This document shows, in pieces, positions 12,314 to 62,745 of a stretch of 64,000 nt of DNA (its first letter is position 1; every line of letters starts with the position of its first letter). A model generated the notes under the pieces. The model saw only the letters and a list, made by a program, of their open reading frames with translations. It was not told the DNA's origin and searched no databases. Made by a program: the position numbers and the translations under genes. This DNA is from an uncultured Actinomycetes bacterium (GTDB lineage Bacteria; Actinomycetota; UBA4738; HRBIN12). The stretch covers positions 74,366-138,365 of the forward strand of contig CAWEPI010000008.1 in NCBI GenBank assembly GCA_963810945.1, given 5' to 3'.

Positions 12314-14672
<2,359 letters not shown>

Positions 14673-14873
14673 CACGCACTCCGATCGGTTCGACGACGGT
14701 CGAGCGAGGATACCCCGCCCGCCGATGTTGGAGGGCCCCAGGTGCACGCGCCGCGTCGCGCACGCGAACAGACCGCGAACGATCGTGTGTTGGGGTGCCG
14801 GTGCCCGTACGCTTGGCCTGTAGGACTTGCCGGATGCACGTGGGATGGCCGGCACCGTGCAGAAGGAGCATCC

Positions 14874-15320: not shown

Positions 15321-15331
15321 GGTGGCCCGAT

Positions 15332-16219
15332 CTACGGCAGCGGTTGCCAGCCGATGTTGTTGCCGGCGCCGCTCGCGACGACGACCTTGATGGCGCCGAG
15401 GTCGTCCGTCGGCGTGCGGGTCCAGATCTGGTCGGTCGTGCCGAACGCGATCCTGGTTCCGTTCGGCGACCACACCGGCGTCCTCGGCTCGCCCGGATAC
15501 GGGGTGGCGACGGCCAGGATGTTCTGATGGGTGCCGTCGGCATGCATCACGACGAGGGAGCCGGGCGCGACCAGGTTGCTCCAGTACACGATGCGTTTGC
15601 CGTTCGGCGACATGTCCGGCTCGAGCTCATCGCCCGGATCGTCGGTGAGGCGTCGCGTGCCGGTGCCGTCCGGCCTCATGCTGAAGATGTCCATGGTGCC
15701 GCGGCGGTCGCTGGAGAACACGATCCTCGAGCCGTCCGGCGTCCACTTCGGGTTCCAATCGTTGGCGTCGTTCGAGGTGATCTGACGGACGCTCGAGCCA
15801 TCGAGCCGCATCGTGCAGATCTCGTCGTCGCCGCCGCGAACGCAGACGTAGGCGATGCGGTCGAGCCCCTGATCGGGCCCCCAGTCCGTCCGGTCGTTGT
15901 GCGTGAGCTGCACGGCCTTCCCGCCACGCGCGCTCACCCGGTAGATCTCGTAGTCGGGATCGGCATCCCGGCTCGCGTCGAAGACGATGGATCTCCCGCG
16001 CGGGGTGAAGGACGGGTACTCGACCCCGGCGTTCTTGAGCGCCGGCCCCAGCTTGAGGATCCGTGGATGCGAACCGTCGCGCGCCACCGTCGTGAGCCCG
16101 TCGGCGGTGGAGACGAAGCGCCCGGGCCGTCCGGGGAACTGCGCGGCGGCCGGATGGGCGACGACGAACGTGAGGACGAGCGTGGCCGATGCTGCGAGGG
16201 CTGCGACACGGATCTTCAT
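15332..16219 (-). CDS. secreted TolB-like beta-propeller (PD40 repeat) protein
   Basis: Signal peptide, followed by repeated SPDG/TPDG...RIVF motifs. Confidence 0.7.
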   Translation of the reverse strand: MKIRVAALAASATLVLTFVVAHPAAAQFPGRPGRFVSTADGLTTVARDGSHPRILKLGPALKNAGVEYPSFTPRGRSIVFDASRDADPDYEIYRVSARGGKAVQLTHNDRTDWGPDQGLDRIAYVCVRGGDDEICTMRLDGSSVRQITSNDANDWNPKWTPDGSRIVFSSDRRGTMDIFSMRPDGTGTRRLTDDPGDELEPDMSPNGKRIVYWSNLVAPGSLVVMHADGTHQNILAVATPYPGEPRTPVWSPNGTRIAFGTTDQIWTRTPTDDLGAIKVVVASGAGNNIGWQPLP

Positions 16220-30100: not shown

Positions 30101-32237
30101 GGGTCTCCTCGAACAGCCGGGCGTTCTCGAGCGCCACGCTCAAGCCCCGTGCGATCGTCGTCAGCAGCCGGACGTCGCCTTCGCTGAAGGCGTGCTCACG
30201 ATCGAGGTTGTGGAGGGAGACCACGCCGGTCCCTCGGTTGCCGACGACCAGCGGGACGAAGACCGAAGACAGTGACGGCTCTCCGGCGATCGCGAACGGA
30301 TTCCCCGCCTCGATGCACCGGCGTTCCATGTCGTCGTTGACGACGACGGGTTCGTGCGTCTCGAGCGCGATCTTGCGGAACCCCATCACCTCTATCGGAT
30401 GGTCGACCAGACGCTGGCCGCGCTCGAGCGAATATGGGAACCAGATCTGGTCCGTGGTCTCGTCGAGCATGCCGATGTCGACCGTTTGCGCGTCGAAGAT
30501 CTCCTGGATCCGTTCTCCGACGAGGGTGTACATCGCCTGCGGGTCGAGATTCTCGACGAGACCGCGCTGGACCTCGTTGATCAGCGCCAGCTCGGCGTTC
30601 CGCTGGCGTGTCTCCTCGAACAGCCGGGCGTTCTCGAGCGCGGCGCTGAGGCTGCCGGCGAGCGTGGTGAGGAGCCGAACGTCCGCGTCACTGAACGCGT
30701 GCTCGCGATCCAGGTTCTGCAGCGAAACGACGCCGGTCGCCTTCAGACCGACCACCAGCGGCACGTACACCACCGACATCGCTGGCTCCCCTTGGAGCAC
30801 CGGGGCGCCACCCAGCTCAACGACCTGTTCGGAGGCCCGGTCGTTGAAGACGATGGGCTCGCGCGTCTCAAGTACCTTCCCACGCGGGCCGCCCACCTCC
30901 ATCGGCTCGTCGTGGAAGCGAACGCCCCGCTCGATCGTGTAGGGGAAGCGGATCAGCCCGGCGTCCTCGTCGAGGATGGCGATGTCGACCACCTGTGCGT
31001 CGAAGATGTCGCGGATCCGGTCCCCGACCAGGTCGTACATCGCTTGCATCTCGAGGTTCTGGGCGAGACCTCGCTGCACGTCGTTGATGAGCGCGAGTTC
31101 GGCGTTGCGCTGGCGCGCCTCTTCGAAGAGCCGGGCGTTCTCTAGCGCAACGCTGAGGCTGCCGGCGAGCGTCGTGAGCAAGCGGACGTCTGCCTCGGTG
31201 AACGCGTGCTCGCGATCGAGGTTCTGCAACGAGATCACGCCGAACGCCTCGCCGCCTGTGATGAGCGGGACGAACAGGACTGACTTCGACTGCTCCCCCG
31301 CCAAGAGATCGGCCGCCTGACCGAACTCGGGCAATCGCTCCAGAACACGCTCGTTGAGCAGCAAGGGCGCGCGCGCGTCGAGTACGTGCCTCCGAAATCC
31401 GACGATGGGGATCCGTTCCAGGGGGAAGCGGACCCCGCGTTCGATCGTATAGGTGATGTCGAGCGCCTCCGCGGCGCGGTCGACGATCCCGATGTCGACC
31501 ACCTGCGCGTCGAAGATCGACTGCAGGCGATCCCCCACCAGGTCGTACATCCCCTGCATCTCGAGGTTCGCGGCGAGACCGTGCTGCACGTCGTTGATCA
31601 GCGCCAGCTCCGCGTTGCGTTGCCGGGTCTCCTCGATCGCGCGGGCGCGACTCAGGGCCGCGCCGACGTGGCTCGCGACGAAGGTCAGGAGGTCCTTGTC
31701 CTCCTCCGTGTGATGCACGTCGTCGCGATAGCTCTGCACGACCATCGCGCCGACGATCCGCCCGTCGGCGCGGAGCGGAACGCCGAGCCAGTCGACCGAA
31801 GGCACGCCGAGGAGCTGGACCTTGCCCTCCCGGATCAGGTCCTCGATGTCCGCGAGCGACAGCAGCATGGAGGTGCCCGTCCGCAGGAGGTACGCGGTCA
31901 GACCGGTGGCGTCACCCTCCCCCATCGGCTCCCAGACGCTCGGATCCGGGAAGGCCTCGTCCGCGTCGACGTCGACATAGAACGGCCAGTTCATCGCCTG
32001 CCGCTCTTCGTCGTACAGGGCGACGTAGAAGTTGTCCGCGTTCATGAGCTCGCCGACGATGCCGTGGATCGCGGCGTAGAACTGCTGCATGTCCTGGGCG
32101 GCGCTCGCCGTCTCAGCGATGCGGTAGAGGGCGGCCTGGACGTGAGCGGAGTGGCGTCGATCCGCGTCCAGTCCCTCGAGTTCCTCGACACGACGCCGGA
32201 GCGCGTCCAGATCCGACGACCCGGCCCGGTCGGTCAC
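27159..32237 (-). CDS. cytoplasmic hybrid sensor histidine kinase: 6 tandem GAF domains, HisKA, HATPase_c, REC, REC, HPt
   Basis: The ORF continues upstream as a junk-like frame, so the start is placed at the GTG overlapping the stop of the upstream cyclase gene (GGTGA). H-box SHEIRTP, two D-containing REC domains, and a C-terminal HPt ([12 protein letters not shown]). No TM helices. Confidence 0.85.
29700..31660. repeat. intragenic tandem repeat: four to five diverged copies (about 480 bp each, about 80% nt identity), each encoding one GAF domain ([14 protein letters not shown]...LENARLFEE)
   Basis: Recurrent strings such as ctcgaacagccgggcgttctcgagcgc and gtgctcgcgatcgaggttctgca recur at about 29.6, 30.1, 30.6, 31.1 and 31.6 kb. 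Confidence 0.7.
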
Positions 32238-33313
32238 CCGGAAGCTTCCCGCTGTGGGTCGGCGGTCCACACCTTGATGCGAGCCTGCTTCCCACGGATC
32301 TCGAACTCGTCCACGAACGTCAGCTCGTCGGCGCCGCTCGTGAGGTTCGTCCGCGTCTGGTCGGCGAGGAGGATCGTCCTCCCCGTCTGCTTGGTCAGCT
32401 GCTCGATGCGCGATGCGGTGTTGACGGTGTCGCCGATCACCGAGTAGTCGATGCGTCGCTCGGAGCCCAGCGTGCCGGACATCACGCGGCCGGAGTCCAG
32501 CCCGATCCCCATCCGGAAGCCCTCCCCGATGCCTTCGGCCCGGAGCCAGCCGTTGAACTCCGACAGCCGTCGCGCGGCCATGTCGCGCGCGGCGGCGACC
32601 GCCCGGTCCGCGTGATCCACGCTCTCGACCGGCGCGCCGAACACGGCCATCAGGCCATCGCCCAGGTAGTGGACCAGCGTGCCCCCGTGATCCAGCACGG
32701 CGTCGCCCATCGTGCCCAGGTAACGGCCCAGCACCGTCATCACCTGTTCGACCGGCCGCGATTCGGCGAAGGTCGTGAATCCGCGGAGATCGATGAACAT
32801 CACGGTGACCCACAGTCGCACCGCCCCGATCGAGGGCAACCCGTCGCTGCGCGAAAGCATCTCGGCGGCGATCGGCTCCGGCAGGAAGCGGGTGAACACG
32901 TCGCGCACACGTTCCTGCTCGATGTCAGCGAGCTGCTTGCGGTTCAGACCGGATCGGATGCGCGCTCGCAGGATCACGGGGTCGAACGGCTTGGGCAGGA
33001 AGTCCTCGGCTCCCGCCTCGATGCACCGAACGATGCTGTCGGTGTCCTCGACGCCGGAGATCATGACCACCGGGGTGTGCCGGAGCTCCGGGTCCTCCTT
33101 CAGCCGCTCGAGCACCTCGATGCCGTCGAGCCCCGGCATCTCGACGTCCAACAGGACGAGATCCGGCCGGTCGGCGGAGAACGCCGCGAGCGCAGAGAAC
33201 CCGTCCTCGAACTGCGTGACGTGATGCCCGTCGTCCTCGAGGTGCTTGGCGAGGAGCCGGCGATTCAGCGGATCGTCGTCCACGATGGCGATGTGACCTC
33301 GACGACCCTCCAT
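32234..33313 (-). CDS. response regulator with class III adenylate/guanylate cyclase output domain
   Basis: REC domain ([12 protein letters not shown]...[11 protein letters not shown]) followed by a cyclase homology domain ([36 protein letters not shown]). Confidence 0.85.
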
Positions 33314-40549: not shown

Positions 40550-42589
40550 TCAGTGGTGGTGCGCCTCGTGAGCCGCGGGCTTTGTATGCGTGGGAGCCGC
40601 GCCGAGGGATCCGTCGCCCGGTCGCAGATCGAGGGTCCTGAGCAGGGTCGCGTTGACCGCCACGACGATCGTCGAGACGCTCATCGCGAGCGCCCCGACC
40701 GCTGGCGGGAACAGGATCCCGGCCCACGCGAGCGCACCCGCGGCGAGTGGGATCGCGACCACGTTGTACCCGAGCGCCCATCCGAGGTTCTGGCGCATCT
40801 TGCGATAGCTCGCCGTCGAGAGCCGGCGCACGGAGATCACGCCGCGCGGATCGTCGCTCGCCAGGACGACACCCGCCGACTCGATCGCCACGTCCGTGCC
40901 GGCCCCGATCGCGATCCCCACGTCGGCACGGGCCAAGGCCGGGGCGTCGTTCACGCCGTCTCCAACCATCGCAACCCGGAGCCCACGTGCCTGCAGTTCC
41001 GCGACCGCCACGTCCTTGTCCTGCGGCAGTACCTCCGCCATGACCTCGTCCACGCCGACATCGGCCCCGACAGCGTCGGCTACCTGTCGAGCATCACCCG
41101 TGATCATCACCACGCGGATCCCCTCTTCACGAAGCGCTCGAACCGCCTCGACCGACTCCGGCCGCACCTGATCTTCGAGGGCGAGAGCGCCGATCACACG
41201 ATCGTCGCGGAGCACGATGAGCACCGATGCACCGCGCTCCCGCCATGTAGCGAGCTCACCTGCGAGCTGGGTGGGCTCCTCTACCTGCCGCTCACGGAGG
41301 AGCGCCGGGCCACCCACCTCGACGCGGACGCCCTCCACGTCCGCTTGAACGCCGCGGCCGGTGAGCGAGCGGAACCCGGAGGCCGGCGGGATCGATCCGG
41401 CCGTGGCCGCGGCGTCGACGATCGCCCGGGCGAGTGGATGCTCGCTGTCTGACTCCGCCGCTGCGGCCAGCCGCAGCACCTCGTCGCCGCTCCCTCCGAC
41501 ACCCGCCACCTCGCGAACGATCGGGCGCCCAACGGTCAACGTGCCGGTCTTGTCGAACAGAACCGCGCTCACCGTTCGCATCCGCTCGAGGGCGAGTCGA
41601 TCCTTGACCAAGATGCCGGAACGCGCGGCCACGGAGGTCGAGATCGCGATCACGAGGGGGATCGCGAGCCCGAGCGCGTGCGGGCACGAGATCACGAGGA
41701 CCGTAACGCTACGTTCCACCGCTTGGCTCACGTCGCCGAGCGCGGACCAAACCAGGAAGGTCACCAGTCCCGCGATCACGGCCACGTAGAACAGGATCGC
41801 GGCGGCCCGGTCGGCGAGCGCTTGTGCGCGCGACCTCGATGACTGCGCCTGCTCGACCAGGCGCAGGATCCCGGCGAGCGTCGTCTCCTCACCCACGGCC
41901 GCCACGCGAACCCTGACCGAACTGTCGGTGGCGACCGTGCCGGCGACGACCCGATCACCCAACCCGCGCAGCGCGGGCTTCGACTCACCGGTGATCATCG
42001 ATTCGTCGAAGGCCGCAGATCCGTCCTCGATCGTCCCGTCCGCCGGAACGCGGCCGCCGGAGCGGACGAGGACGAGGTCTCCCGGCACGAGGTCGGTCAC
42101 GGACACGATCCTGGGGGAATGCCCCTCGACGATCTCGGCCTCATCGGGAAGCAATGCGGCGAGGGCTTCGAGCGCACCCGACGCTTGACCGATCGCCTTC
42201 ATCTCCTGCCAGTGGCCCAGCAGCATCACGTCGATGAGGAGCGCGAGTTCCCACCAGAACTCCAGGTCGAGTGCGCGTGTCTCCGACGCCACGCTCGAGG
42301 CGAAGGCGACCACGATCGCGAGCGAGATCAGGAGCATCATGCCCGGCTGCCGCTCGCGGACCTCTCGCACGCCACCCTGCAGGAACGGCAGCCCGCCGTA
42401 GACGAACACGATCGTGCCGAAGAGCGCTGGGATCCGATCGGAGAGCGGGAAGGATGGTGCCCCATAGCCGAGCCACCCCTGCACGGTCTCCGACCACACC
42501 AGGATCGGAACCGTGAGGAGCGTGCAGAGCCAGAAACGGTCGCGGAACATCGCGACGCTGTGCCCCGCGTGCTTGTCGTGCCCATTCAT
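40550..42589 (-). CDS. heavy-metal P1B-type ATPase with CPH transmembrane motif and His-rich termini (P1B-3/CopB-like), no N-terminal HMA domain
   Basis: SCPHALGLAIP, DKTGTLT, GDGVNDAPAL. His-rich N-terminus (MNGHDKHAGHS) and C-terminus (HEAHHH). ATG at 42589. Confidence 0.85.
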   Translation of the reverse strand: MNGHDKHAGHSVAMFRDRFWLCTLLTVPILVWSETVQGWLGYGAPSFPLSDRIPALFGTIVFVYGGLPFLQGGVREVRERQPGMMLLISLAIVVAFASSVASETRALDLEFWWELALLIDVMLLGHWQEMKAIGQASGALEALAALLPDEAEIVEGHSPRIVSVTDLVPGDLVLVRSGGRVPADGTIEDGSAAFDESMITGESKPALRGLGDRVVAGTVATDSSVRVRVAAVGEETTLAGILRLVEQAQSSRSRAQALADRAAAILFYVAVIAGLVTFLVWSALGDVSQAVERSVTVLVISCPHALGLAIPLVIAISTSVAARSGILVKDRLALERMRTVSAVLFDKTGTLTVGRPIVREVAGVGGSGDEVLRLAAAAESDSEHPLARAIVDAAATAGSIPPASGFRSLTGRGVQADVEGVRVEVGGPALLRERQVEEPTQLAGELATWRERGASVLIVLRDDRVIGALALEDQVRPESVEAVRALREEGIRVVMITGDARQVADAVGADVGVDEVMAEVLPQDKDVAVAELQARGLRVAMVGDGVNDAPALARADVGIAIGAGTDVAIESAGVVLASDDPRGVISVRRLSTASYRKMRQNLGWALGYNVVAIPLAAGALAWAGILFPPAVGALAMSVSTIVVAVNATLLRTLDLRPGDGSLGAAPTHTKPAAHEAHHH

Positions 42590-42670
42590 CTGCGGGAGAC
42601 CGGCTCGACGTTCGTCACGATGTTCCCTGTACCACATCCACGGCCGCGGCGAAGCACTACATTGCGCGGC

Positions 42671-44168
42671 ATGACGCAGGGGACATCGAGCGGACGTGTC
42701 GACCGCGCTAGGGAGCGCGCGACGCAGACGCTGCACCGGCTGACCTCCCTCACGAGGACGTGGTACGCGCCGTCGGCCGACGACCCCGAGTTGGTGTGTT
42801 CGCCGCCCGTGGACGACCCCCGTGTACGGTTGGACATCGAGGTGAACGACCTGAGCCGCCTGCCCTGGTTCTACAAGCGATACCCGTCGCCGCTGCCCAG
42901 GCTGCCCCTCCCTCGCGACCTCCTCGCGACCACGCCCTCGGCGGTGGCCGTGCTCTCGGGCACCGCGGACGCCATACCTACCGAACCGGATCTCGCGCAG
43001 CTCTCGCGGGTGCTCCACCTGTCGGCGGGGGTCGTGCGCACGATGGCGCGGCCGTACGGCACGTGGCTGTTCCGAGCGGCCGGGTCGGCGGGCGGCCGTT
43101 TCCCGCTCGAGCTGTACGTGGCGGTGCCCGAGGGCATCTCCCTCCCGCCGGGCGTGCACTGGTACGACCCGTCCGACCACGCGCTGGTGCGAGGTGGGGC
43201 CGCCGCCCAGGGCGAGACGCCGGTGGTCGTCGTCACCGGTGTCCCGTGGCGCACCGGATGGCGCTATCGCGAACGCGGGTACCGCCACGTCTACTGGGAC
43301 GCCGGCACGATGCTCGCGCAGCTCCTGGCCGTGGCCGACTCCGCCGGTCTCACCTCCCGGCTGTACACGCGCTTCCCGGACGCGGAGGTCACCGGGCTCG
43401 TCGGCGCGGACGGGATCCACGAGTGGCCCGTGGCGGCCGTGGCGCTCGGCGAGGGGCAACCCGCGCTGCGCGCGTCCGGCTGCTGCGACCGCGGGCGGGA
43501 TCGACGCGACGCCGGAGGAGTTCCCGCTCGTCACCGCGGCGCAGCGTGCGGGTGACGGCGACGTGCTGGGAGTGCCCTGGGATCGCGGCGCCCCGGGCGA
43601 TGTGCCGCCCGTGCAGAGCGACCCGATCGAGACCGTGGTGCTCAAGCGAGGGTCGCTCCGTCGCATGGACCCCGGCCGCGGCGTCTCGCAGGAGTTGCTC
43701 CGCATGTCGATGTCGGCCGCGATGCGCGGCATCGATGTCCCGCACCGGGTCGTGGTACAGGGCGTCGATGGCCTCGCGCCCGGCGTCTACCGCTGGCCGG
43801 AGCTCTCGGCCCCGGCGCGCTCGGGCGCGATGCGCGACGAGCTCTACCGGGTGTGCCTCGAGCAGGGGCTCGCGCACGACGCAGCGTTCGTCGTGATCGG
43901 CGCGACCGACGTCGGTGCCCTCGACGACCGCGCGTACCGGGAGGCGCAGCTCGCCGCCGGCCTCGTCGAAGGTCGGCTGCACCTCCTCGCCTACGCACTC
44001 GGCGCCGGCGCATCCGGCATGACGTTCATCGACGACGCGGTGCCGGGACTCCTGGGCGAGCCGCTCGACCCCTTGCTGTTCACCTGCGTGGGCGTGCCGG
44101 AGTATGCCTCGGCGCTCGGGGGGCTCCCGGGCGCCCCCACCGCGGTGCGCAAGGTCCTCGAGCGATGA
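42671..44168 (+). CDS. SagB-type dehydrogenase / nitroreductase-superfamily protein (two nitroreductase-like halves), frameshift near 43470-43490
   Basis: ORFs 42119..43555 and 43194..44168 together give one about 499 aa protein with YKRYPSP...RFPLELYV...YWDAG motifs. Confidence 0.65.
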
Positions 44169-55127: not shown

Positions 55128-55578
55128 CGCTCCTTCTCCTTCCCGCGGTATCCGCTCTCGGACCGAACTCCTCGCCCTGGAGCACTACGGTAATCCCGTC
55201 GCGAAGATCAGGTGAAGCGAGCGGTCCCTGCGGAGAGCGAACAGCAGGTGAACATGGCCTCCCGATGTCACCAGACACCAGCCGGAAGCGGTTCCCCGCC
55301 CCGGGAGGGAGCCGCTCCGGTCGGAACGATCGATCTATCGAAGGACGTCGGTATCACATCCGCCCGATGTCGTACGGAAACGCATGCATCGCGCTCCGAG
55401 GTACTCCGGAACTTCGATGCGCTGGCAACCAGATCGATCGCGATGAGATCCCGGACGCGAACAAGGCCAAGGATCCAACGATGAGAAACGCTGCCTGCCG
55501 GGTGCGGCGCGTCAGACGATGACAGAACCGTCATGTGGGCCTCTCGCTCCCGACTTCCCACCCCGGGAGGGGATGACT

Positions 55579-56307
55579 ATGGTTACCGCGAGGGGGGCTG
55601 CTGTGGCTTCGACCGCGCATGGTGCCAACCGCGAAACGGCTGCCGCCGGCCGCGTGTTGATGATCGATGACGAGCCGCGGATCTTGAACTTCGTTCGGCG
55701 CGGGCTCGAGGCTGAGGGCCTGGAAGTCGACGAGGCCTCCTCGGGCCAGGAGGGGCTCGATCTGGCGCTCGAAGGGCGATACGACCTCGTGATCCTGGAC
55801 CTGGTGATGCCGGGTCTCGACGGGAACAAGGTGCTCAGTCGGCTCCTCGAGCGGCGGCCCGAACAACAGGTACTCGTGCTTTCGGCACTGAACGACACCG
55901 CCACGAAGGTGCGCAGCCTCGAACGTGGGGCGGAGGACTACATCGCCAAACCGTTCTCGTTGGAGGAGCTACTCGCCCGGGTCGAGGTCCGACTGCGCAA
56001 CGCGCAGCGCACGAACGAGACCCACCTGCGTTCACGGGGCCTCTCGTTGGATGTGATCCACCGGCGCGCCGATACCGGTACCGGCCCGGTGCCGCTCGCA
56101 GATCGAGAGTTCCTCCTGTTGCGCGAGTTGATGCGGGATGCAGGTCGCACGGTCTCGAAGGAGCGCCTGTTGTCGTCGGTGTGGGGGTATCACTTCGATC
56201 CGGAGTCCAACGTCGTCGACGTCTACGTCCGCCGACTTCGGGCCAAGCTCGGCGCCGCGACGATCGTGACGGAGCGGGGAGTGGGGTACCGTGTCGAAGC
56301 GCCGTGA
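55579..56307 (+). CDS. OmpR-family response regulator
   Basis: REC domain (VLMIDDEPR...LDLVMPGLDG) with a winged-helix output. SD GGGAGGGG. Confidence 0.8.
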   Translation: MVTARGAAVASTAHGANRETAAAGRVLMIDDEPRILNFVRRGLEAEGLEVDEASSGQEGLDLALEGRYDLVILDLVMPGLDGNKVLSRLLERRPEQQVLVLSALNDTATKVRSLERGAEDYIAKPFSLEELLARVEVRLRNAQRTNETHLRSRGLSLDVIHRRADTGTGPVPLADREFLLLRELMRDAGRTVSKERLLSSVWGYHFDPESNVVDVYVRRLRAKLGAATIVTERGVGYRVEAP

Positions 56308-57412
56308 GCACGTCGAGTGGCCCGCTCGCGACCGGTGGATCGACGTCGCCTGGGTGCTGTTCTCGCTCGCCAACCTCGCTGCCATGCTGCTCATCCCCGA
56401 TTGGGAGACGGTGCCGTTCCACTTCATCTGGGTGAGCCTGACGATCCTGTACGGGTTCCGCGTGTGGCGCACGCGGCCGACCGTCGTGATCCTCGCGCTG
56501 GTGATGGCCACGACCGGCGCATCCATCTACTTCGACGTGAGACGTGGGGGTCAGCCGCTCGACGAGATCACCGAAGTGCCGCTCATGGCCGCCATGTTCG
56601 CGGCCATGGTGTGGCATGCGCGGCGTCGACTGACGGCCACCGAGGAGACGGAACGCGTTTCCTTGGACAACCTTCGTCTCCTCGAGCGCGAGCGCCGCTT
56701 CGTCCAAGACGCCTCCCATGAGCTCCGCACCCCGATCACGGTGGCCCTCGGCCACGCAGAGCTGATCCAACGACAGACAATCGACCCCACCATCGGGCAG
56801 GATGCCGCGGTGATCAACGACGAGCTGATGCGGTTGCGCAGGCTCGCCGACCGTCTCTTGCTCCTAGCGAGCTCGGAGGATCTCGAGCGTTCCCCAGACG
56901 GTTCCGATCGGCGTGGAGCAGCTCGTGGTCGAGGCCGTCGAATCGGTGGGCGGCGACACCGCGGCGGTGGGTCCTCTCCACCACCGAGGAGGTGTTGGTG
57001 CTCGCCGACGCCAGACAGGCTCGCCGTCGCGATCGACGCCGTGATCGAGAACGCGGTGCAACATACCGATGAGGCGGACACGATCGGATTGGGCGTCGAG
57101 CGGCGCGGTACCGAAGCGGTGATCTGGATCCGTGATACGGGAACGGGGATCGCGGCCGTGGACCTGGATCGGATCTTCGATCGGTTCGCTCGGTCCTATC
57201 CGGGTCGAAGCAGGCACACCGGTGGGTTCGGTCTCGGACTGCCGATCGTGCAGGCCATCGTCGAAGGGCACGGAGGCTCGGTGCGCGTCGAAAGCGTCGA
57301 GGGAGCCTGGACGCGGTTCGAGATCGCACTGCCGGTGGCTCAACAGATCATCGGCCCGGAGCTCGGTGACGTCGTGATGGTGGACGGGGATACTCGTGAT
57401 CCCGTCGGTTGA
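56291..57412 (+). CDS. sensor histidine kinase with three frameshifts in the 56890-57010 region
   Basis: Two TM helices, H-box SHELRTP, and a G-box DTGTGI. The stretch between them reads as an R/G-rich junk-like segment in-frame, but as a normal HK sequence across two other frames. Confidence 0.7.
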   Translation: MSKRREHVEWPARDRWIDVAWVLFSLANLAAMLLIPDWETVPFHFIWVSLTILYGFRVWRTRPTVVILALVMATTGASIYFDVRRGGQPLDEITEVPLMAAMFAAMVWHARRRLTATEETERVSLDNLRLLERERRFVQDASHELRTPITVALGHAELIQRQTIDPTIGQDAAVINDELMRLRRLADRLLLLASSEDLERSPDGSDRRGAARGRGRRIGGRRHRGGGSSPPPRRCWCSPTPDRLAVAIDAVIENAVQHTDEADTIGLGVERRGTEAVIWIRDTGTGIAAVDLDRIFDRFARSYPGRSRHTGGFGLGLPIVQAIVEGHGGSVRVESVEGAWTRFEIALPVAQQIIGPELGDVVMVDGDTRDPVG

Positions 57413-58235
57413 TCCGATCGCGTTGTGCGCGATCGTGGCGGGATTCGCGTATGCGAGCGCCGACAGGAGCGTTCGGCGCGCGCGCGGCCGGCCGGCGCCG
57501 CGCGCCCGCCGGACGGCGTTCTACGCGGGCCTGGCGGTCGTCGTTCTCGCACTCACCGGACCGATCGATGCGTCCGTGGAGTCCTCGTTCTCGATGCACA
57601 TGGTCCAGCATCTGCTGCTCACGATGGTGGCCGCGCCGCTGCTCCTGCTGGGCGCACCGCTGACGCTTGCCATCGCCGTGTGGCCGAAGGCCTCTCGTCG
57701 ATCGTTCGCCCACGTCCTGCATAGCGGCCCGGCGCGGTTCGTCTCGAATCCGCTCGTCGCCTGGACGTCGTTCTTCGCCGTGCTGTGGATGGCTCACCTC
57801 ACCGGCCTGTACGAGGCCTCACTGCGCAGCAACGGGATCCATGCGGGCGAACACCTCGCCTTCCTCGCGACCGCACTGGTGTTCTGGGCGCCGATCGTCC
57901 GCGCGGATCCATCGCCATCGGTGTTGTCCTACCCGGCGAAGATCCTGTACCTGTTCGTGGCGATGCCGGCGATGGCGCTCCTCGGTCTGACGATCGTGAG
58001 CGCGCGGCAGGTGCTGTACCCGACCTATGCGCAGGCGGAGGGCGTGGCTCGCGCACTCGCCGACCAGCGGACGGCCGGAGCGATCATGTGGGCCGGGACG
58101 ATGATCCTGATCGTCCCGGCGCTCGGGGTCGTGCTGTGGGAGTGGATGGCCGCCGATGAACGCGAGGCCCGCCGGGTGGATGCCCGACTCGGACATGCCG
58201 AAATGATCGATGCGATCGAGGAAGGTGCCAGATGA
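57396..58235 (+). CDS. ctaG: cytochrome c oxidase (caa3-type) assembly factor CtaG-like membrane protein
   Basis: Multi-TM protein with MHMVQHLLL motif. Sits in the cta neighbourhood. Confidence 0.65.
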   Translation: MIPSVDPIALCAIVAGFAYASADRSVRRARGRPAPRARRTAFYAGLAVVVLALTGPIDASVESSFSMHMVQHLLLTMVAAPLLLLGAPLTLAIAVWPKASRRSFAHVLHSGPARFVSNPLVAWTSFFAVLWMAHLTGLYEASLRSNGIHAGEHLAFLATALVFWAPIVRADPSPSVLSYPAKILYLFVAMPAMALLGLTIVSARQVLYPTYAQAEGVARALADQRTAGAIMWAGTMILIVPALGVVLWEWMAADEREARRVDARLGHAEMIDAIEEGAR

Positions 58236-58414
58236 GTGCGAAGGATCGATGCCTCCGTTGTCGGGGACCGGTCGCCGAGGGAGTTGGCGTCTGTTCGCGC
58301 TGCAACCCCGCGGGCCTGCCGGGTCCCAGCCCCACGCAGTATCACGCGACGGTGTTCCTCGTGGTGATCGTCAGCATGGTGCTGACCGTGGCGGTCCTGA
58401 TCGCGCGCGGCTAA
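58232..58414 (+). CDS. small zinc-ribbon (2x CxxC) protein with C-terminal TM helix
   Basis: ATG overlaps the ctaG stop (ATGA). CLRC...CSRC followed by a hydrophobic helix. Confidence 0.4.
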   Translation: MSAKDRCLRCRGPVAEGVGVCSRCNPAGLPGPSPTQYHATVFLVVIVSMVLTVAVLIARG

Positions 58415-58419
58415 CGGAG

Positions 58420-58788
58420 TCAGTGCCCGCCGGCGTGGGATCGAGCGACGTCGCGGAGCCATCCTGCGGCGCACAGCACGAACGCGACGCCACCGGGGAT
58501 CAGGATCCACGGGCTGACGATCAGCCCGAGCCCGATGATCACGGCCGAGATCGCGAACCCGAGCGGCCAGATCGTCGGCGCCACGTGGATCTCCGTTCCT
58601 TCCTCGGAGGGTCGCTCCGCCTCCTGTCGCGCGACGCGCCGAGCCACCAAGGCGAGGAACCAGAACGTGGCCGACCCGACCAGCAGCAGCGTGGTGCCGG
58701 CGGGCTCGTGGCTCGTGGCGCCGTAGACGCTCCCCGCGACGAGGAGGAACAAGCCCAGCCACATGCAGATGCGAGAGAGGGAGCTCAC
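58420..58788 (-). CDS. ctaF: cytochrome c oxidase subunit IV (actinobacterial CtaF-like)
   Basis: Four-TM small protein directly downstream of ctaE. Confidence 0.6.
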   Translation of the reverse strand: MSSLSRICMWLGLFLLVAGSVYGATSHEPAGTTLLLVGSATFWFLALVARRVARQEAERPSEEGTEIHVAPTIWPLGFAISAVIIGLGLIVSPWILIPGGVAFVLCAAGWLRDVARSHAGGH

Positions 58789-58792
58789 ACCA

Positions 58793-59380
58793 TCACCTCG
58801 GGGTCAGCAGGTAGAAGACGGTGAACAGGCACAGCCAGACGACGTCGACGAAGTCCCAATAGATCGCACCTGCCGCGAGCGGATCATGGTGCGTAGGGGA
58901 CAGCCGGCCGCGCCGGCTCTGGCCGAACACGAGGGCCAGGAACACGACACCACCGATCACGTGGGCCATATGGATCCCCGTCATCACGTAGAACAGCGTG
59001 CCGAACACGCCGTCCTTCAGTCCGAATCCCAGCTGCGAGTAGTCGTACAACTGCAGCGAGAGGAAGCAGATCCCCAGCACGATCGTCACCCCGAGCCAGA
59101 CCGTGGATCGTCTGAGGGAGCCGCTCCTGATCGATCGCAGCGACAGCTGGATCGTGATGCTGCTGATCACAAGGATCACGGTCAGGATCGTGGCGATGTC
59201 GATCTTCAGGTGCGGCGTACCCGCGGGCGGCCACTCGGGTGCGTTGGCCTTGATCGTGAAATATCCACCGAAGAACGCGGCGAAGAACATCGCCTCGGAC
59301 GCCACGAACAAGACCATCCCGAGGACGGGACCGCTCAGCTCGGGTCGGGCACGCTGCTTCGTGGCCATGACATCGCTCAT
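58793..59380 (-). CDS. ctaE: cytochrome c oxidase subunit III
   Basis: COX3 fold. ATG at 59380 with SD GGAG. Overlaps the ctaD stop. Confidence 0.85.
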   Translation of the reverse strand: MSDVMATKQRARPELSGPVLGMVLFVASEAMFFAAFFGGYFTIKANAPEWPPAGTPHLKIDIATILTVILVISSITIQLSLRSIRSGSLRRSTVWLGVTIVLGICFLSLQLYDYSQLGFGLKDGVFGTLFYVMTGIHMAHVIGGVVFLALVFGQSRRGRLSPTHHDPLAAGAIYWDFVDVVWLCLFTVFYLLTPR

Positions 59381-61002
59381 GCGGAAGGCTCCTTCCCGGC
59401 CATGCGTTGGTCGTACACGGGGCGATCCGAGTGGATCGGCGGCAGGGAATCGAAGTTGTGCGCGGGCGGCGGGGACGTGGTTGCCCATTCCAGCGTGTTG
59501 CCCCCCCAGGGATCGTCCGGCGCCGTGCGCGGCCTGCGCAGAGTGAGGAAGACGTTGATGAAGAACAACAGCATCGCTATGGCGATCGTGAACGCGCCGA
59601 TCGTCGACAGCAGGTTCAGGAAGCTCCAACCGAGATCCGGCGGGTAGTCGGCGACGCGGCGCGGCATCCCGCGCAGGCCGAGGATGTGCATCGGGAAGAA
59701 GGTCAGGTTGAACCCGACGAGCTGCAGCCAGAACTGCCAGAGGCCGAGTCGGCGAGACAGCATCCGCCCGGTCATCTTCGGGAACCAGTAGAACATCCCT
59801 GCGAAGACGCCGAACAGGGTGCCGCCGAACAAGACGTAGTGGAGATGCGCCACCACCCAGTACGTGTCGTGGATCGCGAAGTCCATGGCCGGCGACGCGG
59901 CCCAGACGCCGTCGATCCCGCCGATCAGGAACATGGCGATGAAGCCGAGGGCGAACAGCATCGGCGGCTCGAAGCGCAGCCGTCCACGCCAGAGCGTGCC
60001 GAGCCAGATGAAGAACAGGACCCCGGTCGGGATCGAGATCATCTCGGTCGTGACGCTGAAGAACGGCAGCTCGACGGCGCCGGTCGCGAACATGTGGTGG
60101 GCCCAGACGCTGAACGACAGTGCGGTGATCAGCAGGAAGGACAGGACCACGCCCCGGTAGCTGAAGATCGGTCTGCCCGAGAATACGGAGACGATCTCCG
60201 TCACGATCCCCCAGGCACCCAGGATCAGCATGTACACCTCGGGGTGGCCGAAGAACCAGAACACGTGCTGCCACAGGATCACGACGCCGCCCCGACTCGG
60301 GTCGAAGAACACGGTGCCGAGCTGCCGATCCGCGAAGACCATCAGCAGGCCCGCCGTCAGCACGGGCGCGGCAAGGATCACGAGGAGCGAGGTCGCCAAG
60401 ATGCTCCAGGTGAACACCGGCATGCGCATCATCGTCATCCCGGGTGCGCGCATCCGCAGGATCGTCACGATGAAGTTGATCCCGCCGAGGATCGACGCGG
60501 TGCCGACGATCATCAGCCCGATCAGCCAGAGGTCCTCGCCCGTGCCCAGCTGCTCGGACAACGGAGGGTAGTTCGTCCAGCCAGCGGCGGCGCTGCCACC
60601 CTTCGCGAGGAACCCCGACAGGATCGTCAGCCCGCCGACCGGGAGCAGCCAGAACGACAGCGCGTTGATCCGAGGGAACGCCATGTCGAGCGCCCCTATC
60701 TGCAGCGGCACGAAGTAGTTCCCGAAGCCGGCGAGCAGCGGGAAGATGACCAGGAAGATCATCAGCGTGCCGTGCAGCGTGAAGATCTGGTTGTAGGCGT
60801 GGGGAGCGAAGATCTGCGTGCCGGGGCGCGCGAGCTCTGTCCGCATCAGCAACGCGAATACACCTGCGATGACGAAGAACGCGAGGCTGTTGATCAGGTA
60901 GAGGATCCCGATCTTCTTGTGATCGGTCGTGGTCAGCCACGTCTTCCAACCGCGTTCCGGCTCGGGAGCCAGCTGCGCGGCAGGAGCCTCAGTTATCGCC
61001 AT
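59377..61002 (-). CDS. ctaD: cytochrome c oxidase subunit I
   Basis: Canonical COX1 histidines (WFFGHPEVY, HHMF). ATG at 61002 with SD GGAGGA. Confidence 0.9.
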   Translation of the reverse strand: MAITEAPAAQLAPEPERGWKTWLTTTDHKKIGILYLINSLAFFVIAGVFALLMRTELARPGTQIFAPHAYNQIFTLHGTLMIFLVIFPLLAGFGNYFVPLQIGALDMAFPRINALSFWLLPVGGLTILSGFLAKGGSAAAGWTNYPPLSEQLGTGEDLWLIGLMIVGTASILGGINFIVTILRMRAPGMTMMRMPVFTWSILATSLLVILAAPVLTAGLLMVFADRQLGTVFFDPSRGGVVILWQHVFWFFGHPEVYMLILGAWGIVTEIVSVFSGRPIFSYRGVVLSFLLITALSFSVWAHHMFATGAVELPFFSVTTEMISIPTGVLFFIWLGTLWRGRLRFEPPMLFALGFIAMFLIGGIDGVWAASPAMDFAIHDTYWVVAHLHYVLFGGTLFGVFAGMFYWFPKMTGRMLSRRLGLWQFWLQLVGFNLTFFPMHILGLRGMPRRVADYPPDLGWSFLNLLSTIGAFTIAIAMLLFFINVFLTLRRPRTAPDDPWGGNTLEWATTSPPPAHNFDSLPPIHSDRPVYDQRMAGKEPSA

Positions 61003-61018
61003 CGCTGATCCTCCAGGT

Positions 61019-62074
61019 TCACGGCGGCGCGACGATGAACGCGCCCGACATGGCCGGGCCGTGCACATCGCATTGGAAGTAGTAGTGCCCGGGCGGCAGT
61101 CCCGACGCATCCAAGACCTCGTTCGCGACGCCGGTGATCTTCGGAGACGTGAAGAACCTCTTGTTCTCGAAGAAGCTGTCGTAGATCGAGAAGTTGTGCT
61201 CGATCCCAGCGTCTTCGTTGGTGATGTTGACGGTGAACGGCGTGTTCGCAGGAACGGCGAGGCAATACTGGTTCCACGAGATGTTGGATGCGATGAGCGA
61301 CAGGTCGGTGCCGTTCGCGTCACAGGTGACGCTCTTGGCCGCCTTGCGCTGCTGGAGTATCCACGCCTGGTAGTCGACCGACGAGACGACCTGCACCGCG
61401 AACGTCATCTTCGAATGCCACAGACCACAGAACTCAGCGCACTGGGCATGGAACGTGCCGATCTTCGTCGGCGTGAACTCGAACGTGGTCGTTCGGCCGG
61501 GGATCGCATCGCGCTTGAACAGTAGGTCGGGCACGAAGAAGGAATGGATCACGTCTCGCGACGTCAGTTTGATCTGGACCGTCTCATCGACGGGCAGGAC
61601 CATGACCGCCGGCGTCTGCGGCTTGTCCGCGGAGGCGGTCTTGCCCGCCACGAAGATCCCTTCGCTCAGGTACAGGAACGTCCATTCCCACTGGAACCCT
61701 TCCACCTTGATCTGCACCTGCGGTGCCGGCTGGTCCTGCAGCTTCATCAGCGTCTGTTCGCCGAACGGGAACAGCACGGCAACGATCACGGCGGGGATCA
61801 CGAAGAACACGACCAGCGATCGGTTGCCGCCGACCGACTGCGCCGCGAGCGTATCGTCGCGCTTGCGGTAGCGGACGATGCACCAGATCAAGAGCGCTTC
61901 CACGGCGATGAACACCGGCAAGGCGAGCGCCATGATCACGAGGTACAACTGGTGGACGTCGTTACCGGTGGGCGAGATCCCCTGCTTCGCGCAACCCGAT
62001 AGGAGCAGCGTCGCCGGCACGCCGGCGATCCACCGGGAAGTTCGAGTCCAACGAACGCCGCCGTCCGGCTTCAT
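61019..62074 (-). CDS. ctaC: cytochrome c oxidase subunit II lipoprotein fused to an extra C-terminal type-1-copper cupredoxin domain
   Basis: Lipobox LLSGC, two TM helices, and CuA site HAQCAEFCGLWHSKM. An additional about 105 aa domain carries HNF...QCDVHGPAM ligands. Confidence 0.85.
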   Translation of the reverse strand: MKPDGGVRWTRTSRWIAGVPATLLLSGCAKQGISPTGNDVHQLYLVIMALALPVFIAVEALLIWCIVRYRKRDDTLAAQSVGGNRSLVVFFVIPAVIVAVLFPFGEQTLMKLQDQPAPQVQIKVEGFQWEWTFLYLSEGIFVAGKTASADKPQTPAVMVLPVDETVQIKLTSRDVIHSFFVPDLLFKRDAIPGRTTTFEFTPTKIGTFHAQCAEFCGLWHSKMTFAVQVVSSVDYQAWILQQRKAAKSVTCDANGTDLSLIASNISWNQYCLAVPANTPFTVNITNEDAGIEHNFSIYDSFFENKRFFTSPKITGVANEVLDASGLPPGHYYFQCDVHGPAMSGAFIVAPP

Positions 62075-62080
62075 CCCCAG

Positions 62081-62590
62081 TCAGGACACGGTGAAGGAGG
62101 TGACCATGCCCTTGGCGGCATGCGGCGGTCCATCCTCGCCCCCGTTCTGTGTACCGGTTTGCCAGCAGGCGAACGCGTAGGTGCCTGGGGGCAGGTTCAA
62201 GATCTCCACGATGCCGGCGCCGGTGTCTATCGCGCCGAAGTCGCCACCGATGTGCAGCCAGTCATCCTCGGACTTCGCGCCGTCGGCCTTCGCCGCGTCG
62301 ATGACGTCCTGAGCCGTCTTCCCGGCCGGCAAGGCGATCGGGATCATCTCGTGCGTGATCGGGAACGACTCATGGTTCTGGAACAGGAACTCGGTGATGC
62401 CGGCACTGACGTTCGCGGGTACGCCGTTGTACTTGAAGTTCTGCACGAAGATCGTGGCGGTCGGGGTGGTCCCGGAGGTCCCGGAGTCCGAATTCGAGGA
62501 GTTCGAGCAGGAAGAGACCGCCCAGGCCACGAGGGATACGCAGAACAGCACCGGTACCAACTTCCTACCGCGAAGAACTGAGCCCACCAT
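62081..62590 (-). CDS. cupredoxin-like lipoprotein (His...Cys...His...Met pattern), first gene of the cta operon
   Basis: Lipoprotein signal. ITHEM...FACWQTG...PPHAAKGM. Stop lies 6 nt before ctaC. Confidence 0.5.
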   Translation of the reverse strand: MVGSVLRGRKLVPVLFCVSLVAWAVSSCSNSSNSDSGTSGTTPTATIFVQNFKYNGVPANVSAGITEFLFQNHESFPITHEMIPIALPAGKTAQDVIDAAKADGAKSEDDWLHIGGDFGAIDTGAGIVEILNLPPGTYAFACWQTGTQNGGEDGPPHAAKGMVTSFTVS

Positions 62591-62648
62591 GATCCGCCCC
62601 CCTGGATCGCTCGCCGGCCGGTCTTGATCAGCCGCGGATCGAACCTTG

Positions 62649-62745
62649 TGACAGGGACGCTGCGAGGGCAAGATTGATGACAGGACTGTCACCCAGTCGT
62701 TCCCGACGGACGAGTGGGGATGCGCGTTTCATATCAGACCTGTCA
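62649..62745. promoter_or_regulatory. three TGACAGG motifs (one as palindrome TGACAGgaCTGTCA) upstream of the cupredoxin-ctaCDEF operon
   Basis: TGACAGG at 62649, TGACAGGACTGTCA at 62678-62691, and CCTGTCA at 62739, 59-150 bp upstream of the operon start codon on the minus strand. Confidence 0.4.

What the first reader, a model, noticed from the sequence alone, without database searches (positions are those of the whole stretch)
61019..62590. aa3-type oxidase with blue-copper electron entry: CtaC fused to a type-1 cupredoxin domain, preceded by a second cupredoxin-like lipoprotein
Subunit II has the normal CuA site (H-x34-CAEFCGLWHSKM). It then continues for about 105 aa with His (HNF), Cys-x2-His-x3-Met ligands typical of plastocyanin/amicyanin-type copper centres, where caa3 oxidases carry a fused cytochrome c. 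The first gene of the operon is another lipoprotein with a His/Cys/His/Met pattern. No cytochrome c domain is present in the operon. This points to a cupredoxin-based electron donor for this cta(C)DEF oxidase.
Basis: partly seen in the sequence, partly recalled or inferred. Interest (0 to 1): 0.55.

Follow-up and report, generated by a model that had tools for sequence, protein, structure and literature searches.

The report
Oxidase subunit II fused to blue-copper domain
This respiratory oxygen-reducing enzyme carries a blue-copper (type-1 cupredoxin) domain at the spot where related enzymes carry a fused cytochrome c, and the same uncharacterised design is widespread in uncultured soil Actinomycetota and Chloroflexota.

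Summary

Among 82 related CtaC, tails are cupredoxin (46), cytochrome c (17) or absent (19), never both. The fused oxidases form essentially one CtaD clade.

The best explanation is that a T1-Cu domain relays electrons to CuA, as heme c does in caa3 oxidases. This is inferred, not shown. The chain is probably not free of cytochrome c. Orthologues of the Rieske/cyt b6 operon that lies next to one fused oxidase (L010) also encode a monoheme cyt c and a di-sulfocyanin-like lipoprotein.

In the window's clade the K-channel Lys (CtaD) and Glu (CtaC) are both Leu, as described for Fe(II)-oxidiser oxidases.

I found no paper describing the fusion. I rate it a new variant of a known kind.

The parts
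62084..62590 (-). Cupredoxin-fold lipoprotein, 169 aa. Lipobox Cys28 is at 62507-62509. Invariant residues are H80, E81, M82, H113, C142, H157 and M162. The Cys-His loop is long (C-x14-H-x4-M).
61019..62074 (-). ctaC: lipoprotein subunit II of an A-family heme-copper oxidase with a C-terminal type-1 cupredoxin domain (351 aa plus stop).
   Evidence: Pfam COX2_TM, COX2 and Cupredoxin_1. NCBIfam CoxB TIGR02866 scores 182.6 bits against a cut-off of 147.7. PDB hits to subunit II end at about aa 245.
61385..61711 (-). CuA domain (aa 122-230). Ligands are H177, C212, E214, C216, H220 and M223. The electron-entry Trp129 is conserved.
61022..61327 (-). Type-1 cupredoxin domain (aa 250-351). Ligands are H293 (61196-61198), C335 (61070-61072), H338 (61061-61063) and M342 (61049-61051). 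C251 and C271 are conserved and probably form a disulfide.
   Evidence: Pfam. Profile against the PDB with ligand alignment. H/C/H/M kept in 46 of 46 fused CtaC. Eight beta-strands in the AF2 model at pLDDT about 65-80.
59377..60999 (-). ctaD, subunit I (A1-type GHPEVY motif; D-channel Asp present). The K-channel Lys is replaced by Leu328 (60016-60018).
   Evidence: Pfam COX1 E 1.8e-159. Alignment to M. smegmatis CtaD 6adq_F shows PTGIKFF against PTGVLFF.
58793..59410 (-). ctaE, subunit III.
   Evidence: Pfam COX3 E 1.5e-37.
58420..58788 (-). ctaF, actinobacterial-type subunit IV.
   Evidence: Pfam Cyt_c_ox_IV E 2.5e-11.
57396..58235 (+). ctaG (Caa3_CtaG CuB-insertion factor), divergent partner of the operon and part of the conserved module.
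   Evidence: Pfam E 3.8e-68. Conserved next to the operon in 50 loci.
55519..57412 (+). Two-component system: an OmpR-type response regulator (55519-56307) and a histidine kinase (56291-57412). It is conserved with the oxidase module.
   Evidence: Pfam HisKA/HATPase_c. The regulator's best NCBIfam hit is the heavy-metal response regulator subfamily, below cut-off. Present in 12-13 of the fused loci (14 loci in all). Nucleotide homology to L002, L003 and L011 spans exactly 55518-62737.

Best explanation
The operon encodes an A1-type heme-copper oxygen reductase (CtaC-D-E-F) whose subunit II carries an extracytoplasmic type-1 ('blue') copper cupredoxin domain. The domain is fused to the C-terminus of the CuA domain, at the position where caa3 oxidases carry a fused cytochrome c.

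Proposed mechanism: the T1 copper accepts single electrons from an upstream periplasmic or membrane-anchored donor. It passes them intramolecularly to CuA, and from there they go to heme a and the heme a3-CuB site.

The likely donor is the cytochrome c or sulfocyanin-like cupredoxins of a Rieske/cyt b6 complex seen in relatives. The cupredoxin lipoprotein encoded immediately upstream may also take part.

Shown here:
- the domain architecture;
- the complete and invariant CuA and T1 ligand sets;
- homology of the extra domain to electron-transfer cupredoxins, with ligands aligned;
- mutual exclusivity with the cytochrome c tail in relatives;
- the fused oxidases forming essentially one clade.

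Inferred: copper occupancy, the direction and partners of electron transfer, and the heme type.

The upstream lipoprotein is a dedicated partner. It is either a second carrier or docking cupredoxin (compare AcoP in the rus operon) or a copper-delivery factor for the two copper centres of CtaC.
For: - Architecture and ligands.
- Profile of the extra domain against the PDB: auracyanin A 3e-9, auracyanin-like 6kol 2e-8, plastocyanin 1e-6, amicyanin 2.5e-5, with H/C/H/M aligned on the copper ligands.
- 46 of 46 fused CtaC from Actinomycetota and Chloroflexota (identity down to 32%) keep H, C, H and M.
- Of 82 related CtaC, 46 have a cupredoxin tail, 17 have a CXXCH cytochrome c tail and 19 have no tail. 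None has both.
- The same cupredoxin family occurs as stand-alone lipoproteins and as tandem multi-domain proteins (A3). It is also encoded as separate 2-3-domain genes inside caa3-type oxidase operons (L069, L072, L078).
- The electron-entry Trp129 of the CuA domain is invariant.
- Unfused sister oxidases sit next to qcrCAB. Fused ones do not.
- L010 has the fused oxidase 4 kb from a GltD-like/cyt b6/SUIV operon. Orthologues of that operon (88-89% nucleotide identity) continue with Rieske, a monoheme cyt c and a di-sulfocyanin-like lipoprotein.
- Precedents: a halocyanin fused to subunit IIa of haloarchaeal ba3 oxidases, halocyanin being the described redox partner (PMC3128077). From established knowledge: sulfocyanin SoxE in the SoxM complex, and plastocyanin donating to cyanobacterial cytochrome oxidase.
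Against: - There is no experimental or structural evidence for copper binding or for T1-to-CuA electron transfer.
- The full-length AlphaFold model is poor (pLDDT 63), so the T1-CuA distance could not be assessed.
- The donor is unknown, and no complex III genes lie in the 20 kb nearest the operon (genes before about 44 kb were not scanned).
- One MAG (AC_66) appears to hold both a fused oxidase and a caa3 oxidase (L006 and L069). The fused enzyme may therefore be a conditional, specialised oxidase rather than the main route.
- The lipoprotein's Cys-His spacing of 14 residues is unlike any characterised T1 site. Only its His and Cys align with T1 positions.
Confidence: 0.7

Rival explanations
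1. Copper-handling role. The upstream lipoprotein, and possibly the fused domain, are copper chaperones or copper-buffering modules. On this view they metallate CuA and/or CuB, as PCuAC, Sco, CupA or YtkA/CtaK do, rather than act as redox carriers.
For: - The lipoprotein has an atypical long Cys-His loop and extra invariant E81, M82, H113 and D117.
- The module also carries ctaG. In relatives it carries TlpA-like thioredoxins and YtkA-like proteins, i.e. assembly genes cluster here.
- The Chloroflexota fused clade lacks this lipoprotein, so it is not essential to the fused design.
Against: - The fused domain has the canonical four-ligand T1 set and aligns best with bona fide electron carriers.
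- It replaces a cytochrome c domain, which is a redox module, not a chaperone.
- The lipoprotein lacks the PCuAC H(M)x10Mx21HxM motif and the Sco CxxxC motif. This was checked by direct reading of the sequence; the motif definition comes from PMC9145763.
- Chaperone sites are usually solvent-exposed Cys/Met sites, not H-C-H-M.
Confidence: 0.15
2. Specialised high-potential-donor oxidase. The module would be an analogue of the Acidithiobacillus rus-operon oxidase, which has a cupredoxin gene before coxB and no K-channel. It would oxidise an extracellular or periplasmic high-potential donor such as Fe(II), or copper-protein-mediated substrates, rather than serve the ordinary quinol-to-complex III chain.
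For: - In the window's clade the CtaD K-channel Lys is Leu328 and the CtaC TM2 Glu is Leu87. This is the same double substitution reported for Fe(II)-oxidiser COX and some Actinobacteria/Chloroflexi MAGs (bioRxiv 10.1101/2020.03.01.968255).
- The gene order cup-COX2-1-3-4 matches the rus operon core.
- The module is a self-contained 7-9 kb cassette with its own two-component regulator, inserted in different genomic contexts.
Against: - There is no Cyc2-like or other outer-envelope cytochrome, and no rusticyanin gene, in the window.
- The CuA-ligand Glu214 is retained, unlike in proteobacterial Fe(II) oxidisers.
- The Chloroflexota fused clade keeps both K-channel residues (A4), so the fusion and K-channel loss are separable.
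- The MAGs come from ordinary soils (record titles).
Confidence: 0.12
3. The extra domain is a structural or vestigial appendage with no redox or copper role.
For: Nothing beyond the absence of experimental data.
Against: All four ligands plus flanking Gly/Phe/Asn are invariant across 46 sequences at 32-95% identity and across two phyla. A decaying domain would not show this.
Confidence: 0.03

Closest known systems
caa3-type cytochrome c oxidases (e.g. Thermus thermophilus 2yev, Bacillus, Rhodothermus)
   Same: An A-family oxidase whose subunit II has a one-electron redox domain fused to the C-terminus of the CuA domain. caa3-type relatives with a CXXCH tail were found among the related loci (L060-L082).
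   Different: The fused domain is a type-1 copper cupredoxin, not a heme c domain. There is no CXXCH in the protein or in the window.
Actinobacterial aa3 oxidase of the bcc-aa3 supercomplex (Mycobacterium, Corynebacterium CtaC/D/E/F)
   Same: The closest solved relatives: CtaD scores E 4e-188 to M. smegmatis 6adq_F. CtaF subunit IV is present and CtaC is a lipoprotein. This type is the sister clade in the CtaD tree.
   Different: - It has the extra T1 domain.
- No qcrCAB lies adjacent, whereas unfused relatives have it.
- The NCBIfam aa3_CtaC_Actin score is 194 bits, below the 250 cut-off.
- The K-channel Lys and Glu are replaced.
Halocyanin-subunit IIa fusion of haloarchaeal ba3 oxidases; sulfocyanin SoxE of the Sulfolobus SoxM complex
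   Same: A blue-copper protein is physically tied to a terminal oxidase and acts (halocyanin) or is proposed to act as its electron donor (PMC3128077; SoxE from established knowledge).
   Different: Those are archaeal. The halocyanin case involves a B-type oxidase with the fusion to the small helix IIa. SoxE is a separate subunit. Here the fusion is to the CuA subunit itself, in bacterial A1-type oxidases.
Auracyanins, plastocyanin and amicyanin (type-1 cupredoxins)
   Same: Best sequence-profile matches, with the ligand set H...C-x2-H-x3-M aligned. Stand-alone members of the same family are lipoproteins, as auracyanin is membrane-anchored.
   Different: The domain is covalently part of an oxidase subunit. 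It has its own conserved Cys pair (C251/C271). It forms a distinct family with 1632 representative clusters and many tandem architectures.
rus-operon oxidase of Acidithiobacillus ferrooxidans with AcoP (cup) and rusticyanin
   Different: No cyc2, cyc1 or rus genes are present. The CuA Glu ligand is retained. Subunit II is itself fused to a T1 domain. The source is high-GC soil Actinomycetota MAGs.

Membership tests
A-family heme-copper oxidase subunit II (CoxB/CtaC) | N-terminal two-helix membrane anchor plus a cupredoxin domain with the binuclear CuA ligand set H...C-x-E-x-C-x3-H-x2-M | tested here: met
   Pfam COX2_TM and COX2. TIGR02866 is above its cut-off. H177, C212, E214, C216, H220 and M223 are invariant.
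A-family heme-copper oxidase subunit II (CoxB/CtaC) | Encoded with subunit I carrying the A1 motif GHPEVY (cross-linked Tyr, D-channel Glu) | tested here: met
   ctaD lies directly downstream. It has GHPEVY at aa 251-256 and the D-channel Asp in LDMAFPR.
Canonical A-family proton pathways | K-channel Lys in helix VIII of subunit I (Pd K354 / Rs K362) and Glu in TM2 of subunit II (Pd E78 / Rs E101) | tested here: not met
   Leu328 in CtaD (PTGVLFF against PTGIKFF) is found in 17 of 17 members of the clade. Leu87 in CtaC aligns with Rs E101 and is nearly invariant in the clade.
caa3-type oxidase | C-terminal cytochrome c domain with a CXXCH heme-binding motif on subunit II | tested here: not met
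   No CXXCH in CtaC or in any ORF of the window.
Type-1 (blue) copper cupredoxins | Cupredoxin beta-sandwich domain | tested here: met
   Pfam Cupredoxin_1 scores 49.9 bits against a cut-off of 27. Profile hits to auracyanin, plastocyanin and amicyanin. Eight beta-strands at aa 257-349 in the AF2 model, at moderate confidence.
Type-1 (blue) copper cupredoxins | Ligands: one upstream His, plus Cys, His and Met in the loop between the last two strands, aligned with those of solved T1 proteins | tested here: met
   H293, C335, H338 and M342 align with plastocyanin H37/C84/H87/M92 and amicyanin H53/C92/H95/M98. Invariant in 46 of 46.
Type-1 (blue) copper cupredoxins | Binds one Cu, with an intense ~600 nm S(Cys)-to-Cu charge-transfer band and small A-parallel in EPR | not testable with these tools
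   Requires purified protein.
Actinobacterial bcc-aa3 supercomplex oxidase | CtaC matching NF050117, CtaF present, and functional or genomic link to the di-heme QcrC | tested here: inconclusive
   CtaF is present. NF050117 scores 194 bits, below the 250 cut-off. No qcr genes were found in the window's last 20 kb (the part scanned against Pfam) or in fused loci, whereas unfused relatives have them.
PCuAC / Sco copper chaperones (considered for the upstream lipoprotein) | PCuAC motif H(M)x10Mx21HxM, or Sco thioredoxin fold with CxxxC plus His | tested here: not met
   The motifs are absent from the sequence (motif definition from PMC9145763). The fold is a cupredoxin closest to EfeO-N, Cupredoxin_1 and auracyanin.
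Type-1 cupredoxins (considered for the upstream lipoprotein) | Cupredoxin fold with H / C-xn-H-xm-M ligands, n = 2-6 in characterised proteins | tested here: inconclusive
rus-operon-type oxidase of Fe(II) oxidisers | K-channel-less COX1/COX2, a cup gene before coxB, Cyc2/Cyc1 cytochromes and rusticyanin in the operon, and loss of the CuA Glu ligand | tested here: not met
   The first two features are met. Cyc2, Cyc1 and rus are absent. The CuA Glu214 is present.

The most novel reading that the evidence does not exclude
The Actinomycetota form is a distinct class of A-type oxidase, carried on a mobile, self-regulated 7-9 kb cassette. Electrons would enter through an all-copper relay (lipoprotein cupredoxin to fused T1 Cu to CuA), and the enzyme would work without a K-channel. 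It would be a copper-for-heme substitution switched on by its own (possibly metal-sensing) two-component system. Its purpose would be iron sparing, or use of a high-potential donor such as Fe(II) in soil.
Probability: 0.2. Interest if true: 0.8.

Novelty: new variant of a known kind. Interest (0 to 1): 0.6.

Why it matters
Heme-copper oxidases are textbook enzymes whose electron-entry modules are thought of as CuA alone, CuA plus heme c (caa3), or heme c subunits (cbb3). This finding would add a bacterial A-type lineage whose entry module is T1 Cu plus CuA. The lineage is abundant in soil metagenomes from two phyla: thousands of database proteins, all labelled simply 'subunit II'.

It would give a natural system for studying intramolecular T1-to-CuA electron transfer. 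It would revise respiratory-chain reconstructions for uncultured Actinomycetota and Chloroflexota (Limnocylindria and others). In the actinobacterial branch it would also offer a natural A1 oxidase lacking both key K-channel residues, which bears on how protons reach the active site.

Annotation pipelines currently hide all of this.

Tried and rejected
- Exact-sequence look-ups of the window's own lipoprotein (P0121) and CtaD found no contig on record. The source genome could therefore not be inspected for complex III or cytochrome c biogenesis genes.
- The full-length CtaC AlphaFold model was too poor (pLDDT 63) to judge domain packing. Model coordinates are not exposed, so ligand geometry could not be measured.
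- The profile of the lipoprotein family against PDB sequences gave nothing. Pfam gave only a sub-threshold Cupredoxin_1 hit.
- The afdb50 fold library was unavailable.
- The promoter/terminator scan and the repeat search of the 360-bp region upstream of the operon found nothing.
- Seven literature searches found no description of a COX2-type-1 cupredoxin fusion. Subscription-only literature was not searchable.
- The idea that the lineage lacks cytochrome c altogether was rejected. Orthologues (L084/L085) of the Rieske/cyt b operon that lies next to the fused oxidase in L010 encode a monoheme cyt c.
- An apparent absence of Rieske and cyt c genes in the closest loci turned out to be an artefact of my GC3-based gene caller. 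tblastn corrected it.
- Membership of the lipoprotein in PCuAC or Sco was rejected on motifs.
- Cluster look-ups for diverse fused representatives returned only metagenomic sources and no cultured organism.
Full report
**What is in the window.** The last 9 kb of this 67% GC window holds, on the minus strand, a tightly packed operon.
- A 169-aa lipoprotein, 62084-62590.
- ctaC, 61019-62074.
- ctaD, 59377-60999.
- ctaE, 58793-59410.
- ctaF, 58420-58788.

Facing it on the plus strand are a 60-aa Zn-ribbon/TM ORF (58232-58414), ctaG (57396-58235), a histidine kinase (56291-57412) and an OmpR-type response regulator (55519-56307).

Pfam assigns COX2_TM, COX2 and Cupredoxin_1 to CtaC. It assigns COX1, COX3, Cyt_c_ox_IV and Caa3_CtaG to the others.

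**Check of the observation.**
- The CuA site is H177-x34-C212-A-E-F-C216-G-L-W-H220-S-K-M223.
- The extension carries H293-N-F and C335-x2-H338-x3-M342. Codons were verified.
- All of these residues are invariant in an alignment of 37 homologues at 70-95% identity. So are the lipobox Cys28 and a Cys pair C251/C271.
- PDB subunit II sequences align only up to about residue 245. The last 100 or so residues are therefore an addition.
- No CXXCH motif exists in any ORF of 50 aa or more, in any frame of the 64-kb window.
- The genes upstream of the operon are a metallo-beta-lactamase-fold protein and a zinc-type dehydrogenase fragment.

**Identity of the extra domain.** A search of 1.8 billion cluster representatives with residues 236-351 found 1632 related clusters. 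They fall into three kinds.
- Stand-alone lipoproteins of 130-200 aa.
- Proteins with two to six tandem copies.
- C-terminal fusions to COX2, including one with COX2 plus two copies.

In an alignment with 24 stand-alone members, the His, Cys, His and Met are invariant. A profile of that alignment matches auracyanin A (E 3e-9), an auracyanin-like protein (2e-8), plastocyanin (1e-6) and amicyanin (2.5e-5). The printed alignments put the four residues on the known copper ligands.

The full-length AlphaFold model is only moderate (pLDDT 63). It shows eight beta-strands in residues 257-349.

**The upstream lipoprotein.** It has 393 homologues, all annotated 'hypothetical' and without Pfam domains. 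Invariant residues include H80, E81, M82, H113, C142, H157 and M162.

A profile-profile comparison links it to the fused-domain family (probability 79%, E 1.6e-5). That comparison aligns H80 and C142 with the T1 His and Cys. The Cys-His spacing is 14 residues, outside the range of characterised T1 sites.

It is a cupredoxin. Whether it is a carrier or a copper-delivery protein is open.

**Distribution and comparative anatomy.** The closest 120 database proteins all have the COX2 plus Cupredoxin_1 architecture. They are named only 'cytochrome c oxidase subunit II'.

A scan of one genome per prokaryotic species returned the fusion from two groups.
- Uncultured Actinomycetota MAGs, at 43-85% identity.
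- Chloroflexota MAGs (Limnocylindria, Chloroflexia, Anaerolineaceae), at 32-41% identity.

A profile search centred on the Chloroflexota form again returned only MAG or metagenome proteins. Cluster look-ups gave no cultured source.

Of 82 CtaC in the fetched loci, 46 have the cupredoxin tail with H/C/H/M in 46 of 46. Seventeen have a CXXCH cytochrome c tail and 19 have none. None has both.

A neighbour-joining tree of CtaD puts the fused oxidases in one clade. Three untailed Chloroflexota sequences are nested inside it. The clade is sister to the ordinary actinobacterial aa3 type (no support values).

The lipoprotein gene precedes ctaC only in the Actinomycetota branch. The Chloroflexota branch often has a roughly 400-aa protein ending in a cupredoxin of the same family after ctaE.

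Some caa3-type operons (L069, L072, L078) encode 2-3-domain proteins of the same cupredoxin family after ctaG. This again ties the family to terminal oxidases.

**Where the electrons may come from.** Unfused relatives sit next to qcrC, qcrA and qcrB. Fused ones do not.

One fused locus (L010, CtaC 74% identical) has an operon 4 kb downstream. It begins with a small ORF, a GltD-like Fe-S flavoprotein, cytochrome b6 and subunit IV.

Orthologous operons in metagenome contigs (88-89% nucleotide identity) continue with three more genes.
- A Rieske protein.
- A membrane-anchored monoheme cytochrome c.
- A lipoprotein with two sulfocyanin (SoxE)-like domains that have T1 motifs.

The lineage thus appears rich in copper carriers but not devoid of cytochrome c. 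A plausible chain is Rieske/cyt b6, then cyt c and/or sulfocyanin-like protein, then fused T1 Cu, then CuA. This is inference.

One MAG (AC_66) contributes both a fused locus (L006) and a caa3 locus (L069). The fused oxidase may therefore be one of several.

**An unexpected extra.** In the window and in 17 of 17 members of its Actinomycetota clade, the K-channel lysine of subunit I is leucine (Leu328). The motif is PTGVLFF, against PTGIKFF in M. smegmatis.

The subunit II transmembrane glutamate at the channel entrance is Leu87, aligned with R. sphaeroides E101 and nearly invariant in the clade.

The Chloroflexota fused clade and all other relatives keep both residues (alignment A4). The D-channel Asp and the GHPEVY Glu and Tyr are present.

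The same double substitution is described for the rus-operon oxidase of Fe(II) oxidisers and for some Actinobacteria and Chloroflexi MAGs. There, too, a cupredoxin gene (cup/AcoP) lies just before coxB (bioRxiv 10.1101/2020.03.01.968255). No Cyc2, Cyc1 or rusticyanin genes are present here, and the CuA Glu ligand is retained. I therefore do not file this enzyme under that type.

**Module behaviour.** Nucleotide similarity between the window and three related MAG loci covers exactly 55518-62737, from the response regulator to the lipoprotein. The flanks are unrelated.

In L010 the equivalent block of about 9 kb is absent from an otherwise collinear contig, L085.

The oxidase, its assembly factor and its two-component regulator thus travel as a unit.

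**Comparison with what is known.** The enzyme works like a caa3 oxidase, with T1 copper in place of heme c. It fails the caa3 defining feature (CXXCH).

It is an A1-type CoxB/CtaC by all tested features except the K-channel.

There are precedents for blue-copper proteins tied to oxidases.
- Halocyanin fused to subunit IIa of haloarchaeal ba3 oxidases (PMC3128077).
- Sulfocyanin in SoxM (my own knowledge).
- Plastocyanin donating to cyanobacterial oxidase (my own knowledge).

Seven full-text searches found no description of a COX2-T1 cupredoxin fusion in bacteria. Domain databases already record the architecture implicitly (precomputed Pfam domains).

**Verdict.** Function is still untested. 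I rate it a new variant of a known kind, of moderate-to-high interest to bioenergetics.

Noticed in passing
window 60016-60018 (CtaD Leu328) and 61814-61816 (CtaC Leu87): Both key K-channel residues of A-type oxidases are leucine: the subunit I Lys and the subunit II TM2 Glu. This holds in 17 of 17 members of the Actinomycetota fused clade, but not in the Chloroflexota fused clade or in other relatives. It is the same pattern reported for Fe(II)-oxidiser oxidases.
   Followed up: partly
window 55518-62737; L010:8622-17571 against L085: The oxidase operon plus ctaG plus HK-RR behaves as a 7-9 kb cassette. Homology to related MAGs stops exactly at its ends. In L010 the block is an insertion relative to the collinear contig L085.
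   Followed up: partly
window 55519-57412 (+): A two-component system is conserved next to ctaG in 12-13 of the fused loci (14 loci in all). The response regulator's best NCBIfam match is the heavy-metal (CztR/SilR/CopR) subfamily, but below cut-off. It may be a copper- or redox-responsive control of the oxidase.
   Followed up: partly
window 58232-58414 (+): A 60-aa ORF with a CxxC...CxxC zinc-ribbon and one TM helix. It overlaps the ctaG stop and converges on ctaF. A gene of the same size is called at the same place in L001. It matches no family.
   Followed up: no
L084:5565-11155, L085:7826-12914, L010:17602-20953: An operon of a small ORF, a GltD-like NAD(P)-binding Fe-S flavoprotein, cytochrome b6, subunit IV, Rieske, a monoheme cyt c and a lipoprotein with two sulfocyanin-like T1 domains. 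It is a flavoprotein-bearing Rieske/cyt b complex, reminiscent of those discussed for anammox bacteria (my recollection, not checked).
   Followed up: partly
L069:8411-9349, L072:14666-16057, L078:14779-15819: caa3-type oxidase operons (CtaC with CXXCH) encode, after ctaG, membrane-anchored proteins with 2-3 tandem cupredoxin domains of the same family as the fused domain.
   Followed up: partly
L027:13697-14968, L029:11769-12968 and about 10 other Chloroflexota loci: A protein of about 400 aa, with an unassigned N-terminal 300 aa and a C-terminal Cupredoxin_1 domain, follows ctaE in the Chloroflexota fused operons. YtkA-like and TlpA-like (AhpC/TSA) genes are also conserved neighbours.
   Followed up: partly
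P0242 (458 aa; cluster members 454-488 aa): A variant subunit II with COX2 followed by two cupredoxin domains.
   Followed up: no
L019:2-3932 and 9273-13698; L021: Two fused-type oxidase operons lie side by side in the same contig. One copy is split into many frame-shifted pieces, which suggests a pseudogene or long-read assembly errors.
   Followed up: no
window 27159-32924 (-), 12438-15626 (-), 40550-43786 (-): Three very long ORFs (about 1900, 1060 and 1080 aa) elsewhere in the window were not examined.
   Followed up: no
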